Origin: a virus
Lineage: Duplodnaviria; Caudoviricetes
Virus record (IMG/VR): IMGVR_UViG_3300028593_000003
Reading direction: 5' to 3' (one strand)
DNA length: 64,000 bases
Below the pieces are notes generated by a model. That model did no database searches. It was given only the letters and a program-made list of their open reading frames with translations, and was not told the origin of the DNA. The translations under genes were made by a program, and so were the position numbers. Positions 35,106 through 38,360 of the stretch are shown here, piece after piece (position 1 is the stretch's first letter; each line of letters begins with the position of its first letter).

Positions 35106-35969
35106 TCATCCTTCCATCTCCTTTTTTATTACCTCTGCCGCATATTCCATCTTGAACTCTGGATAGAACTTGTCTATCCTGTCATAAATGTGAGCTATGT
35201 ATCCGAGATACACATAATCGTAACTTGAAGTGACAAAAATCATATCACTCAAATTCCTGATTATTGTATCGGAAAACAGAGCGTGGTAGTAACGATGTTC
35301 TTCCGGTAATAATATTATAACATTGTTTTCAAGGATTGTAAAGATGTCAGGATTGAGATATCCTATAGAATAGTCACGGGTTGAACCCAATAAAACCGTA
35401 CATTTCATATCGGAATATTTGATATTCTTGTCAAAAACGACATTCAGGTTGGTATATTCATCCACCTTTTCTTTCGAAATGTTCGAATAATCCGAGTATT
35501 TTGTTGAAGAAGTGGGGTAATTCTTGCCAAATTCCACCAAATACTTCTCAAAAGAGCCCAGTTTATCGAAAATAATACCCTTAAAACCGATTGTAAGGGG
35601 TCGCGGCTCGACTTTATTTAGCTTTAGGGTATCTATCGAGTGTATTTTGGGGCAGTAGTGGGGAAAATAGTGAAAATCGGGCCTGTAATTGACGGCCGGC
35701 TCAAACAAAGACACATTGTATTTCTTTAGCCAGCGGGCTTCATCAGGTCTTATCGCAAGAAATTTGTCAAAAATAATGACACGGGTTTTTTTCTTGAGAT
35801 AAAACTTGAGAACTTCAGTTTGAAGTGCGAAAGGTTTCGGATTTGAGGGATTGTAGGGGATGTATTCAATATAAACGGCGTCACAATCAGAAAAATCGGT
35901 ATCTGATAAGGTGACGCCGTTCAATACTTTGTTAAAAACTGGACTACAGTTTAAGGTAAACAATGTCAT
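35106..35969 (-). CDS. Hypothetical protein, possibly GT-B-like
   Basis: 287-aa ORF overlapping the Ro60 stop; alternating beta/alpha pattern; fold assignment is weak. Confidence 0.5.
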   Translation of the reverse strand: MTLFTLNCSPVFNKVLNGVTLSDTDFSDCDAVYIEYIPYNPSNPKPFALQTEVLKFYLKKKTRVIIFDKFLAIRPDEARWLKKYNVSLFEPAVNYRPDFHYFPHYCPKIHSIDTLKLNKVEPRPLTIGFKGIIFDKLGSFEKYLVEFGKNYPTSSTKYSDYSNISKEKVDEYTNLNVVFDKNIKYSDMKCTVLLGSTRDYSIGYLNPDIFTILENNVIILLPEEHRYYHALFSDTIIRNLSDMIFVTSSYDYVYLGYIAHIYDRIDKFYPEFKMEYAAEVIKKEMEG

Positions 35970-37302
35970 TATGGATATTTTTTACAAACTCCTTTTCATA
36001 CTCTATGATGTAGGAGACTACCGCTTCGGAGAAGCCGTCAATATGAACCCAATCACCATAACCCACACCATTACGGTATGAAGCCACATTGATGAGGTAA
36101 TACTGTGCTTCTGGCAGTTTGTTTGGGATCTCGTCGTGAATTTGTTCATCGGTGATGACGATCAGACGATCAAACTTCTCCCTTTCAACAATCGCTTTGA
36201 TTGCTCTACCGAGCCAAGTTCCACCGTGAGGCTGAGAACGAGAAATAGCATTGGCCAAATTAAATCCACGGTGAGCATCGGCAATTTTTCTCACATCTGT
36301 AGAGAATGAGTACACGGAAACATCCTCACAGATTTCTCTTGCGATGAGAGCAACACCATTAGCGGCGTCAATCCTCGTCATATCGGACTTGTCAGAAAGA
36401 GCCATATCCATAGAACCGGAAACATCCACAAGAATTATTGTCTTACCTTCCAAGGTGTCAAGGTTCCTGATGGACTTGAACATCAGGGTTTCAAGCTGGT
36501 TCTTGAACTTTGGAGCATATTTTACTGCCGCAATAAATCTGAAAGGGAGAACCCTGTCAGTTTTCATATTTTCAAGACCACGAAGAATGATGTTCTCATC
36601 CACATTTGCCTGGGTCATATTACGAAGGTTCCTCAAGAGTGCCAGAGCACCAAGGCGGTTCTCCATAATAAGCTCTTCCCAAACAGCTTTCTTGTCCTTA
36701 CCGGCAGAAAGCCCCGTTTCCCAAGTTTTTGGGATTTCCAATTTGTTGTCAATAAGTTTCTTCCAGACATCAGCCTGTGAAGCATTGAGAGGTTTCGCGT
36801 GAGAAAGAAAAAGAACATCTCTCAATTTTACCGAATAGTCACGGTTATATTTGGCGAGCTGGTACTCGTCAAATTTCGTGAAGGCTTTAGCCAGACCTTT
36901 CTTTACCTGTGCGGCAAGAGGGGTCTTACCATCTTTCCAGTAGAGAGAAAGGAACTCCGCCAACTCGTCAGGACGCTGGATTATCCTTCCCAATGTCTTT
37001 GCCACATATTTCCTATGGTCAATATGGCGTACCATTCCCGTAACAAGAAGAAGAGGAACGTGACGCAAATTCATCCTCTCTCTTGCCTCGACAGCAAGAT
37101 TTGCCACGGTCTTACCATTGACTTGTGGAATAGTTGCGAGTATCCTGTCTGCAACGGATGCTCCGTCCTCATAAAAGGACTTTTCCCAAAGCAAGCAGGA
37201 CATCGTTGAACGTCTGAGGATTTGCTCAGGTGTGAGAACCTTTGCAGAACCACCCTCATAGGTTTTAGGAACACGGTTTTTGAAGGAATTATATTTCGCC
37301 AT
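35944..37302 (-). CDS. rsr: Ro60/Rsr TROVE-domain RNA-binding protein with C-terminal vWA
   Basis: TYEGG, LLWE.SFYE.G, LRHVPL, FDEYQLAKY, LRD.LFL.H.KP, TWET.LS, ALLRNLRN, PFRF, DVSGSM, ITDEQ. Confidence 0.93.
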   Translation of the reverse strand: MAKYNSFKNRVPKTYEGGSAKVLTPEQILRRSTMSCLLWEKSFYEDGASVADRILATIPQVNGKTVANLAVEARERMNLRHVPLLLVTGMVRHIDHRKYVAKTLGRIIQRPDELAEFLSLYWKDGKTPLAAQVKKGLAKAFTKFDEYQLAKYNRDYSVKLRDVLFLSHAKPLNASQADVWKKLIDNKLEIPKTWETGLSAGKDKKAVWEELIMENRLGALALLRNLRNMTQANVDENIILRGLENMKTDRVLPFRFIAAVKYAPKFKNQLETLMFKSIRNLDTLEGKTIILVDVSGSMDMALSDKSDMTRIDAANGVALIAREICEDVSVYSFSTDVRKIADAHRGFNLANAISRSQPHGGTWLGRAIKAIVEREKFDRLIVITDEQIHDEIPNKLPEAQYYLINVASYRNGVGYGDWVHIDGFSEAVVSYIIEYEKEFVKNIHNDIVYLKL

Positions 37303-37331: not shown

Positions 37332-37433
37332 ATAACGGGGAACTTGCGAAACCGGAAATTCGGTGGACTTTCACCACCGTGTCGTTGATCACCTAGCATG
37401 GTCGAAGTAACCGACTTCTATCGCCACCGTTAT
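37332..37433 (-). ncRNA. Y-RNA-like unit 1 (~102 nt, 47-nt insert)
   Basis: Terminal stem AUAACGG/CCGUUAU; GGUGGCG and GUUCCCC; 8-bp stem GAAGUCGG/CCGGUUUC; UUACUUCG. Confidence 0.8.
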
Positions 37434-37442
37434 ATTCTGAAA

Positions 37443-37579
37443 AGCGGGGAACAGCCAAACAGAGACTTATATATCCATTTGCTCTGCCATTGAGCTACCG
37501 TCCATTTGGGTTGGACGGGTTAGAATCGAACTAACAACCTAATGGTTCCGACGAAGTAACTCTATTTTACGCCACCGCT
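37443..37579 (-). ncRNA. yrlA: YrlA-like Y RNA with circularly permuted tRNA domain (unit 2)
   Basis: Same scaffold; insert has T arm GUUAG-UUCGAUU-CUAAC, loop-closed acceptor stem CCGUCCA/UGGACGG, D arm GCUC-AAUGGCA-GAGC. Confidence 0.88.
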
Positions 37580-37588
37580 CATATTCGA

Positions 37589-37725
37589 ATGTTGGGGAAC
37601 AATTGTAAACGGCTCTTTTAGGGGTGTTTTCTTCTTCTGGAAAAAACCAATCGAATATTCAGCCCCTCGTTTTCAATTTAGGGAAATTGATTAACCGAAG
37701 TATCCGAATACCGCACCACCAACAT
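37589..37725 (-). ncRNA. Y-RNA-like unit 3 (~137 nt, 83-nt insert)
   Basis: AUGUUGG/CCAACAU terminal stem; GGUGGUG, AUACUUCG, UGUUCCCC; two internal hairpins. Confidence 0.78.
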
Positions 37726-37734
37726 AAATTTTCA

Positions 37735-37987
37735 TTCATCGGGGAACAGATGGAAATGGGGTGGGGATTAGCAATCCCCGAAAGAACATTTACCTCATCC
37801 TGTTCTTCCCACACCGTAAAAGGAACTACTTGCCCAATTTATTTTGTTCCTGTATGTGAGAACGGCTCCAATGAGGGCTTCGGCCCGTAAAGGTCGAATG
37901 TCTGAGCCGCACCATAACCGTGATTATGGTTCGGGCACCCATAATAGTCATCTGTACGAAGTAACCACTTCCGACGCCACCGATGAA
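37735..37987 (-). ncRNA. Y-RNA-like unit 4 (~253 nt, 197-nt multibranch insert)
   Basis: UUCAUCGG/CCGAUGAA terminal stem; GGAAGUGG/CCAUUUCC; UUACUUCG; at least 6 internal helices. Confidence 0.8.
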
Positions 37988-38006
37988 AATATCAAAGAAC
38001 TATGTT

Positions 38007-38035
38007 ATAATAACATATTTACTTATAAATGTAAA
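38007..38035 (-). promoter_or_regulatory. Early promoter for the Y RNA array-rsr operon
   Basis: GTTTACA-17 nt-TATTAT with extended -10 TG, ~20 nt upstream of unit 4. Confidence 0.75.
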
Positions 38036-38039
38036 CAAA

Positions 38040-38360
38040 TTATTTTCTTTTCAATGAAGATTTCTTGGATTTTTCTTCAACTGCCTGTTTTTCTTCAGTT
38101 ATTGGTGCGCCCACCTTCTCGTCAGAGGTTTTTGTACCTACTGTTTTGTCAACAATCCAGTATCTTACCTCGTCAGATATGGCGTCCACTCTTGAAGCCA
38201 GACCGGAAGAAATAACCCGATGATTTGGGCCTACCCTTCTTATAAGGGTGTTTATAGCCTCTTCGTGTGACCACGAAACGACAAAGGCCGTCCACATTGA
38301 CATATCACGGAGTAATTCGTATTCAATACGAAATACCGACATATTTTTCTTCTCACCCAT
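38040..38360 (-). CDS. Hypothetical protein
   Basis: GGAGG RBS; packed operon. Confidence 0.6.
   Translation of the reverse strand: MGEKKNMSVFRIEYELLRDMSMWTAFVVSWSHEEAINTLIRRVGPNHRVISSGLASRVDAISDEVRYWIVDKTVGTKTSDEKVGAPITEEKQAVEEKSKKSSLKRK

What the first reader, a model, noticed from the sequence alone, without database searches (positions are those of the whole stretch)
37760..37956. ~200-nt multibranched RNA domain with a predicted pseudoknot, carried by unit 4
Seen: helices at 37911-17/37924-30, 37863-68/37904-09 (enclosing 37875-78/37883-86), 37808-14/37854-60 (enclosing 37821-26/37846-51), 37782-88/37801-07 and 37763-69/37773-79. The loop sequence UUGGGCA (37837-37831) is complementary to the single-stranded UGCCCGA (37937-37931), giving a 7-bp long-range pseudoknot. 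Two CAGGA motifs occur, one as CAGGAUG running into a hairpin loop, which recalls CsrA/RsmA sites. This is much larger than the Y RNA effector domains I know and I do not recognise the fold. It could be a new structured RNA class (scaffold, sponge or ribozyme).
Basis: partly seen in the sequence, partly recalled or inferred. Interest (0 to 1): 0.75.

Follow-up and report, generated by a model that had tools for sequence, protein, structure and literature searches.

The report
Large folded cargo in phage Y RNA
The ~200-base stretch is a real, conserved, multi-helix RNA domain with a likely pseudoknot. It takes the place of the usual tRNA-like "cargo" in one of four Y-RNA-like genes in front of a phage Ro60 gene, matches no catalogued RNA family, occurs in only one small phage lineage, and its binding partner is unknown.

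Summary
The finding holds as an observation. On the minus strand, 37760-37956 is the insert ("cargo") of the first of four tandem Y-RNA-like units (37987-37332). These lie between a sigma70-like promoter and a phage Ro60/TROVE-vWA gene.

Only one other intact copy of this cargo was found, L017 (Ro60 82% identical). Against it, 99% of pair positions in 51 proposed pairs stay paired. Ten pairs changed on both sides, and shifted-register controls gave at most 2. Two are invariant, and one of these has an equally stable alternative. One helix (37782-88/37801-07) is not kept.

The 7-bp loop-to-strand pairing is more stable than 99.6% of shuffles in both copies. In L017 it is lengthened by two inserted bases that pair with each other.

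A 48-nt core is 46/48 identical, while neutral sites are about 59% identical. There is no Rfam hit at E<=10. There are no further homologs in about 110 Ro60 loci, IMG/VR patterns, GTDB genomes or GenBank phages. A common sister lineage (L018 type) has deleted half of the domain.

Best reading: a lineage-specific, pseudoknotted adaptor domain of a Ro60-bound Y RNA. Nothing supports a CsrA sponge or a ribozyme. This scan has already noted phage Ro60 with handle-plus-cargo RNA arrays on much other DNA; this particular cargo is new.

The parts
38007..38035 (-). Sigma70-like promoter (TTTACA, 17 nt, TG-n-TATTAT) driving the RNA array and probably Ro60.
   Evidence: 10 of 12 matches with an extended -10. 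The same TTTACA-17-TAGAAT arrangement is kept in L017 and L018.
37735..37987 (-). It comprises the terminal stem UCAUCGG/CCGAUGA, GGUGGCG, the 8-bp handle stem GGAAGUGG/CCAUUUCC, UUACUUCG, the cargo, and UGUUCCCC.
   Evidence: The handle is shared by all four units here and by units in about 60 other Ro60 loci. The 8-bp handle stem differs between units while staying complementary.
37760..37956 (-). The 197-nt cargo domain, which is the finding itself.
   Evidence: Alignment A3 with L017:606-807. Model R1 scores 234 and 242 bits for the two copies and finds nothing else.
37911..37930 (-). Hairpin Ha: ACCAUAAU / GUUAUGGU with loop CACG.
   Evidence: Three pairs changed on both sides in L017, which reads CACCCAA/UUGGGUG.
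37863..37909 (-). Invariant core (block 1). Helix Hb is CGGCUC/GAGCCG. It encloses either GGGC-CGAA-GCCC or the alternative UUCGACCU/GGGCCGAA hairpin.
   Evidence: 46 of 48 positions are identical to L017, against about 59% at neutral sites. The two inner folds are isoenergetic. No pair varies, so the pairing is untested.
37806..37862 (-). Long arm Hd. The outer helix is 37854-62/37806-14 and the inner helix is 37846-51/37821-26. They close a 21-nt conserved loop containing AAUAAA and UUGGGCA.
   Evidence: Six pairs changed on both sides and four wobble changes, all kept paired. Sequence identity here is only 55%.
37931..37937 (-). 5' strand of pseudoknot PK1 (UGCCCGA). It pairs with the Hd loop at 37831-37837 (UUGGGCA).
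   Evidence: One search gives the energies and shuffles. One search shows 5 invariant pairs, 1 wobble change and 1 lost pair. In L017 the helix gains two extra pairs (A-U and G-C), the G and C lying in insertions on the two strands. In L018 the 5' strand is deleted and the loop has mutated to UUUAGGUAG.
37779..37805 (-). Conserved block 2 (CAGGAUGAGG-U-AAAUGUUCUUUCGG). Its GAUGA (37795-37799) could pair with UCAUU (37870-37874) as a second pseudoknot.
Evidence: 25 of 29 positions are identical to L017. RNAalifold chose CCUCAUU/GGAUGAGG. All of those pairs are invariant, so this is untested.
37763..37779 (-). Hairpin Hf: GGGGAUU-GCU-AAUCCCC.
   Evidence: One pair changed on both sides and two wobble changes in L017. 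A weaker version remains in L018.
37332..37725 (-). Units B, C and D of the same array. Unit C carries the permuted tRNA-like (YrlA-type) cargo.
   Evidence: Rfam YrlA scores 33.7 bits, E = 2e-5, at 37477-37543, below the gathering score of 69. The L017 counterpart scores 39 bits. The handles are shown.
35944..37302 (-). Phage Ro60 (TROVE + vWA) gene, the presumed protein partner.
   Evidence: Pfam TROVE E = 5e-23, with vWA_Ro60 and VWA_2 just below their cut-offs. PHROG 850 'RNA-binding protein' E = 1e-51.

Best explanation
Unit A is a Y RNA of the phage's own Ro60 protein. Its handle consists of the terminal stem, GGUGGCG, an 8-bp stem, UUACUUCG and UGUUCCCC. This handle docks on Ro60, as it does for the three sister units. 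Its 197-nt insert is a lineage-specific effector (adaptor) domain.

The insert folds into a compact body. This body has hairpin Ha, an invariant 48-nt core closed by Hb, a long two-part arm Hd, and hairpin Hf. The loop of Hd reaches back to a 5' single strand to form a pseudoknot.

By analogy with characterised Y RNAs, which tether Ro60 to an effector such as PNPase, the domain most likely presents its two sequence-invariant blocks as the binding surface. The partner would be a host or phage protein or RNA different from those engaged by the tRNA-like and small cargos of units B-D.

Shown here: the location, strand and shared handle; conservation of the fold through compensatory change; strong sequence constraint on the core; and the lack of any catalogued family.

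Inferred: Ro60 binding, expression and processing, and partner recruitment. The partner's identity is unknown.
For: Context:
- Four tandem units with one handle sit directly upstream of, and on the same strand as, a TROVE/vWA gene.
- The same handle-plus-variable-insert design lies upstream of Ro60 in most of 94 related loci.
- One unit is YrlA-like.
- A conserved promoter lies upstream.

Literature:
- Y RNAs are encoded next to Ro60 and tether it to PNPase. At least one per species is tRNA-like and the others differ (PMC4201824).
- A phage Ro60 binds two upstream Y-like RNAs and host PNPase (PMC12135203).

Structure:
- 10 pairs changed on both sides, 99% of pair positions paired and slid controls <=2.
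- The helices evolve at the neutral rate, 55-59% identity, equal to Ro60 third codon positions. Block 1 is 46/48 identical.
- The pseudoknot duplex beats more than 99.6% of shuffles in both copies.
- G-U pairs and wobble intermediates fit the minus strand only.

Ancestry:
- L017 and L018 Ro60 are 92% identical to each other and 80-82% identical to the window. The domain is therefore ancestral to the three types and has been kept in two of them.
Against: - Only two independent intact sequences exist, so every covariation count rests on one pairwise comparison.
- The L018-type phage has lost about 92 nt plus about 24 nt of the domain. It is nevertheless the form seen on the most contigs (15) in several samples. 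The full domain is therefore dispensable in at least one lineage.
- Thermodynamic support from the window alone is weak: z = -1.27. The opposite strand scores z = -2.08.
- No expression data could be obtained.
- No candidate partner emerged. The gene after Ro60 is equally conserved in the truncated lineage, and its Atlas feature matches include phage clusters with glycosyltransferase labels.
- The handle motif here (GGCGUCGG) departs from the published GNCGAAN0-1G.
Confidence: 0.6

Rival explanations
1. The cargo is a decoy or mimic of a host RNA, as unit C mimics tRNA. It would draw a host enzyme or defence nuclease onto the Ro60 particle or away from its real substrate.
For: Mimicry has a precedent in the same array (the YrlA-like unit C) and in the literature (PMC4201824). 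The invariant 48-nt core suggests sequence-specific recognition. An earlier unchecked note of this scan reports rRNA-like cargos in other phage Y RNAs.
Against: There is no Rfam hit at E<=10 in either copy. Similarity to the E. coli 16S, 23S, 5S, tRNA-Ile and tRNA-Ala genes is no greater than for shuffles: 44/100 and 25/100 shuffles score as high. Core 21- to 35-mers are absent from 185,579 GTDB genomes. The host is unknown, so a host-specific model cannot be excluded.
Confidence: 0.12
2. It is a tolerated expansion segment. The insert is kept folded only so that the Y RNA stays stable and nuclease-resistant, and it has no specific partner.
For: The domain is confined to one small lineage. It is half-deleted in the widespread L018 type without loss of the handle. 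Cargo length varies widely among phage Y-like units. Most are about 30-36 nt or 84-112 nt, with a few of about 200 nt such as L082.
Against: A merely tolerated insert should not hold 46/48 identity over its core when neutral sites are at 59%. It should also not conserve a 21-nt hairpin loop and its distant complement.
Confidence: 0.15
3. It is a CsrA/RsmA-type sponge that titrates a host translational regulator through GGA motifs.
For: AACAGGAUGAG resembles the SELEX CsrA site RUACARGGAUGU (consensus quoted from memory, not checked here) and is invariant in L017, which has a second GGAUGAGGAAAU copy.
Against: Only one conserved site exists. The other CAGGA lies inside a covarying helix and is lost in L017. 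The hairpin that would display the site in a loop is not conserved (and the manual check of 37782-88/37801-07). GGA appears about five times in 197 nt, near the rough chance expectation of 3-4 (counted by eye). Known sponges carry many sites. The L018 type has lost the motif.
Confidence: 0.03
4. It is a self-cleaving ribozyme that helps cut the four-unit precursor.
For: It is a pseudoknotted, multi-helix RNA with an invariant core at the head of a polycistronic RNA array.
Against: No ribozyme family of Rfam matches at E<=10. The other three junctions have no such element. Arrays in about 60 related loci lack it. The L018 type works without it.
Confidence: 0.03

Closest known systems
Bacterial and phage Y RNAs of the YrlA/YrlB type with Ro60 (Rsr): Rfam RF02553; Chen et al. 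2014, PMC4201824
   Same: It is encoded next to Ro60 on the same strand, in a multi-RNA precursor upstream of the gene. The 5' and 3' ends form a long stem with a conserved purine-rich 5' motif. Relatives have GGCGAAG, which fits GNCGAAN0-1G. The design is modular, with one conserved Ro-binding stem and a variable effector part. A sister unit in the same array is YrlA-like.
   Different: The cargo is 197 nt, so the unit is about 250 nt against the published 80-130 nt. It has no T-arm or D-arm module and no RF02553 score. It has a pseudoknot and two invariant blocks. The handle motif here is GGCGUCGG. The handle also carries a strongly conserved GGWUACUUCR element.
Yrl1 and Yrl2 of Thermus phage phiLo with phage Ro60 (PMC12135203)
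   Same: These are phage-encoded Y-like RNAs directly upstream of a phage Ro60 gene. They were shown to bind that Ro60 and host PNPase, and they are the nearest experimental model for how this unit would work.
   Different: The phiLo RNAs are described as canonical stem-bulge-stem Y RNAs with a CGAA motif. No large pseudoknotted cargo is reported. No sequence relationship was tested here.
Deinococcus radiodurans Yrn1 in the Ro60-Y RNA-PNPase (RYPER) particle (as summarised in PMC4201824)
   Same: The working principle is the same: the stem binds Ro60 and the distal module binds an effector enzyme.
   Different: Yrn1's module is tRNA-like and its partner, PNPase, is known. For the present cargo the partner is unknown and the fold is different.
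Other long cargos in phage Y-like units, e.g. L082:~29-230
   Same: It has the same handle, the same position upstream of Ro60 and a cargo of about 200 nt made of several hairpins.
   Different: It is not homologous: R1 gives no hit. It has repeated simple hairpins rather than a pseudoknotted body with an invariant core.

Membership tests
Y RNA (Ro60-associated, YrlA/YrlB-like) | Encoded within about 2 kb of a Ro60 ortholog, on the same strand. | tested here: met
   Unit A ends 433 nt upstream of the TROVE/vWA gene start, on the same strand and in one array with three further units.
Y RNA (Ro60-associated, YrlA/YrlB-like) | The 5' and 3' ends pair into a long stem interrupted by a conserved internal loop or bulge. 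| tested here: met
   A terminal 7-bp stem plus an 8-bp inner stem flank GGUGGCG and UGUUCC. The inner stem differs between paralogous units and between phages while staying complementary.
Y RNA (Ro60-associated, YrlA/YrlB-like) | GNCGAAN0-1G motif near the 5' end (Chen et al. 2014). | tested here: inconclusive
   Unit A has GGCGUCGG and unit D has GGCGAUAG. Relatives have GGCGAAG or GGCGUAG at the same place. The position is the same but the sequence is degenerate.
Y RNA (Ro60-associated, YrlA/YrlB-like) | Physical binding to Ro60. | not testable with these tools
   This needs RIP or EMSA.
YrlA (Rfam RF02553) | A tRNA-like module (T-arm, D-arm) and a score at or above the gathering threshold of 69 bits. 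| tested here: not met
   There is no RF02553 alignment on 37735-37990 even at E<=10. The module has no canonical T or D arm. Only unit C scores, at 33.7 bits.
CsrA/RsmA-sequestering sRNA (CsrB/RsmY type) | Several GGA motifs, mostly displayed in hairpin loops and conserved. | tested here: not met
   There is one conserved GGA site. The second is lost in L017, and the displaying hairpin is not conserved.
Known self-cleaving ribozymes and other large structured RNAs in Rfam 15 | A covariance-model match. | tested here: not met
   There is no relevant hit at E<=10 on either copy and none at gathering score in the whole window.

The most novel reading that the evidence does not exclude
The cargo is a new pseudoknotted protein-recognition fold. 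Through it a phage re-aims its Ro60 particle at a host machine other than PNPase or tRNA enzymes, for example a ribonuclease, a ribosome-associated factor or a defence protein. Each unit of the array would then be a different 'address label' for one Ro60 ring. The invariant 48-nt core would be the address. Loss of that core in the L018 lineage would mark a change of host or of host defence.
Probability: 0.2. Interest if true: 0.7.

Novelty: new variant of a known kind. Interest (0 to 1): 0.45.

Why it matters
Y RNAs are thought to work as modular adaptors: a constant stem holds Ro60 and a variable part chooses the partner. So far only tRNA-like and simple-loop modules have been described.

The cargo found here is large, is conserved through compensatory change, is probably pseudoknotted, and has an invariant core. 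If it is real, phage Y RNAs carry a wider repertoire of modules than is known. It also gives a concrete bait for finding a new Ro60 partner, using pull-downs with the intact cargo against the naturally truncated one.

The value is limited for now. The domain is known from two related phages of anaerobic-digester-type metagenomes, the host is unknown and there are no expression data.

Tried and rejected
- Rfam: gathering search of the whole window, and E<=10 searches on the array and on unit A alone in both copies. Nothing was found for the cargo.
- GenBank phages: blastn with the array found no match.
- Exact or degenerate core patterns: four scans of IMG/VR and two of GTDB genomes. All returned 0 hits.
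- Model R1 over the window plus about 104 loci found only the window type, L017 and the truncated L018 type.
- nhmmer with block 1 and block 2 alone gave the same result.
- Ro60 protein search: only three clusters are at or above 80% identity, and the next are at or below 62%.
- Search with the upstream 106-aa neighbour found a new lineage (L108/L109) that has a different first unit. Another lineage (P0127) has the same 740-nt gap, but its DNA could not be fetched.
- Similarity to the E. coli rrn operon is no better than for shuffles.
- Antisense targets in the window: no match longer than 12 nt, which is the chance level.
- Small ORF: AUG at 37788 after GAGG gives 17 codons here but 6 in L017. 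It was rejected as coding.
- T-arm/D-arm reading of the core (GGCUCAG...UUGGAGCC, UUCGACC): only 2 of 5 'T-stem' pairs are canonical. It remains a resemblance only.
- Partner by synteny: the gene after Ro60 is 72% conserved in the truncated lineage too, so no correlation exists.
- The automatic census of cargo lengths is heuristic and contains false units. It is used only qualitatively.

Full report
**Where it sits**

The stretch lies in a 738-nt gene-free gap. On one side is a small phage gene (38040-38360, minus strand). On the other is a 452-aa gene (35944-37302, minus strand) that matches Pfam TROVE (E = 5e-23). It has Ro60-type vWA matches just below their cut-offs and matches PHROG 850, 'RNA-binding protein'. 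Nearby genes are RecA-like, SbcC/SbcD-like and a GIY-YIG endonuclease, so this is a phage.

Read on the minus strand, the gap holds four tandem units with one common frame. The frame is: terminal stem, GGUGG(C/U)G, 2-3 nt, an 8-nt stem strand, (U/A)UACUUCG, a variable insert, the complementary 8-nt strand, about 3 nt, (U/A)GUUCCCC, and the terminal stem.

- The third unit's insert is a permuted tRNA mimic. It gives a sub-threshold Rfam YrlA hit of 33.7 bits, E = 2e-5.
- A sigma70-like promoter with an extended -10 lies at 38035-38007. It is conserved in relatives.
- The finding's coordinates, 37760-37956, are exactly the insert of the first unit, here called unit A (37987-37735).

**The design is general**

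Sixteen IMG/VR loci and 78 metagenome loci encode relatives of this Ro60. Most of them have one to five units with the same handle upstream of the gene.

- Inserts are mostly about 30-36 nt (simple hairpins) or about 84-112 nt (tRNA-like). A few are much longer, for example L082.
- This agrees with published work. Y RNAs are encoded beside Ro60, at least one per species is tRNA-like, and others differ. Characterised Y RNAs are 80-130 nt (PMC4201824).
- A Thermus phage Ro60 binds two upstream Y-like RNAs and host PNPase (PMC12135203).
- Earlier notes of this scan describe many such phage arrays on other DNA. I used them only as leads.

**Is the structure real?**

From the window alone the case is weak. 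The cargo's MFE is only 1.3 sd better than shuffles. The opposite strand does no worse. The decisive evidence is comparative.

Only three Ro60 clusters are at or above 80% identity to the window's. The next are at or below 62%.

- Contigs of the window's own type (L102, L103, L104) have an identical unit A.
- L017 (Ro60 82% identical) has an intact 202-nt cargo that is 72% identical in nucleotides.
- On that alignment I counted 51 proposed pairs. Of their pair positions, 99% are standard pairs. Ten pairs changed on both sides and eight changed through a wobble. Registers slid by 1-3 columns gave 38-57% pairing and 0-2 double changes.
- The double changes fall in Ha (3), Hd outer (3), Hd inner (3) and Hf (1).
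- These regions are only 55-59% identical, the same as third codon positions of Ro60 (59%). The sequence therefore drifts freely while the pairing is held.

Two helices, Hb and Hc, never vary and so remain untested.

**The pseudoknot**

- The duplex between the 5' single strand and the 21-nt Hd loop is -11.3 kcal/mol in the window. Seven of 2000 shuffles are as good. In L017 it is -17.2 kcal/mol, and six of 2000 are as good.
- The GCCC/GGGC core is an island of conservation in an otherwise variable 5' segment.
- One G-U becomes A-U, and one terminal pair is lost.
- In L017 the helix gains two extra pairs (A-U and G-C), the G and C lying in insertions on the two strands.
- Single-sequence folding nests this helix at the expense of Hd. 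Hd carries six compensatory pairs, however, so the two together make a genuine pseudoknot.
- I put this pseudoknot at roughly two in three.
- A second possible long-range pairing, CCUCAUU with GGAUGAGG, was chosen by RNAalifold. It is invariant and therefore untested.

**Sequence constraint and loss**

Block 1 (37863-37909 plus one flanking base) is 46/48 identical to L017. Block 2 (CAGGAUGAGG...UUUCGG) is 25/29 identical. This points to sequence-specific recognition or tertiary contacts.

- The L018-type phage is found on 15 contigs from several samples. Its Ro60 is 92% identical to L017's.
- This type has lost about 92 nt: the PK1 5' strand, Ha, the 5' strand of Hb, and Hc. It has also lost about 24 nt further on.
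- Its orphaned loop has mutated from UUGGGCA to UUUAGGUAG.
- By parsimony the domain is ancestral and was deleted once. The full domain is therefore not essential to every member of the lineage.

**What it is not**

- No Rfam family matches either copy at E<=10.
- The cargo model R1 and block-only HMMs find nothing in about 110 Ro60 loci.
- Core patterns are absent from IMG/VR and from 185,579 GTDB genomes.
- There is no match among GenBank phages.
- Similarity to the E. coli rRNA and tRNA genes does not exceed that of shuffles.
- No antisense target exists in the window.
- A 17-codon ORF in the 3' part is cut to 6 codons in L017.
- The CsrA idea rests on one conserved GGA site. The other site is paired and not conserved.
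- Nothing suggests self-cleavage.

**Mechanism**

Step 1, shown: unit A has the same handle as its sister units and lies in a Ro60 operon.

Step 2, inferred from PMC4201824 and PMC12135203: the handle binds the phage Ro60.

Step 3, shown: the cargo is a selected fold with an invariant core.

Step 4, inferred: the cargo acts as an adaptor that brings Ro60 to, or gates it for, a partner different from those of units B-D. No partner could be named. The gene after Ro60 is equally conserved in the truncated lineage. Its Atlas feature matches include phage clusters with glycosyltransferase labels. Expression could not be checked.

**Verdict**

This is a new variant, a large pseudoknotted cargo, of a known kind of RNA (the Ro60-associated Y RNA). 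It is not a free-standing new RNA class. Interest is moderate: the structure is well supported for two sequences, but the distribution is narrow and the function is unknown.

Noticed in passing
L108:1160-1310 and L109:887-1040: A related phage, whose homolog of the 38040-38360 protein is 55% identical, has a ~150-nt hairpin-rich leader between the conserved promoter and its four-unit Y-like array. Its first unit has only a ~37-nt cargo with a GGGC-UUCG-GCCC hairpin.
   Followed up: partly
L082:~29-230: This is another ~200-nt cargo in a Y-like unit upstream of a distant Ro60 (34% identity). It is built from several hairpins, including two near-identical ones (CAGAGCUUGUCUCUG and UAGAGCUUGUCUCUA). 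It is not homologous to unit A.
   Followed up: no
L095:2640-2900 (also L018 and L099; absent in L096): A ~200-nt insertion with a called 73-aa ORF sits between the third and fourth Y-like units of the L018-type phage. It is present or absent among otherwise near-identical contigs.
   Followed up: no
window 35106-35969 (-): A 287-aa gene overlaps the Ro60 stop codon by 26 nt and is 72% conserved in the L018 type. It has no Pfam or PHROG match. ESM Atlas feature matches include phage clusters labelled GT47/exostosin-like, and one in which 12% of members carry Glyco_trans_1_2.
   Followed up: partly
window 37854-37868 with 37846-37851 (-): A local hairpin (GUUCU/GGAAC here, CCUUG/CAAGAGG in L017) is possible in both copies. 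It is mutually exclusive with the covarying arm Hd, and together with the nested form of PK1 it gives the single-sequence MFE. It could be an alternative conformer, but no covariation supports it.
   Followed up: partly
window 37957-37964 and the equivalent in every unit; L001-L094: GG(A/U)UACUUC(G/A), directly 3' of the first handle stem strand, is the most conserved element of these phage Y-like units across about 60 loci. It is more conserved than the published GNCGAA-type motif. Its role is not described in the papers I read.
   Followed up: no
Logan SRR23086382, SRR23086390 and SRR23086399 (no locus): A lineage with a 61%-identical neighbour gene has the same 740-nt gap before a 452-aa TROVE gene as the window. 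Its DNA could not be retrieved. It is the best candidate for a third intact copy of the cargo.
   Followed up: no
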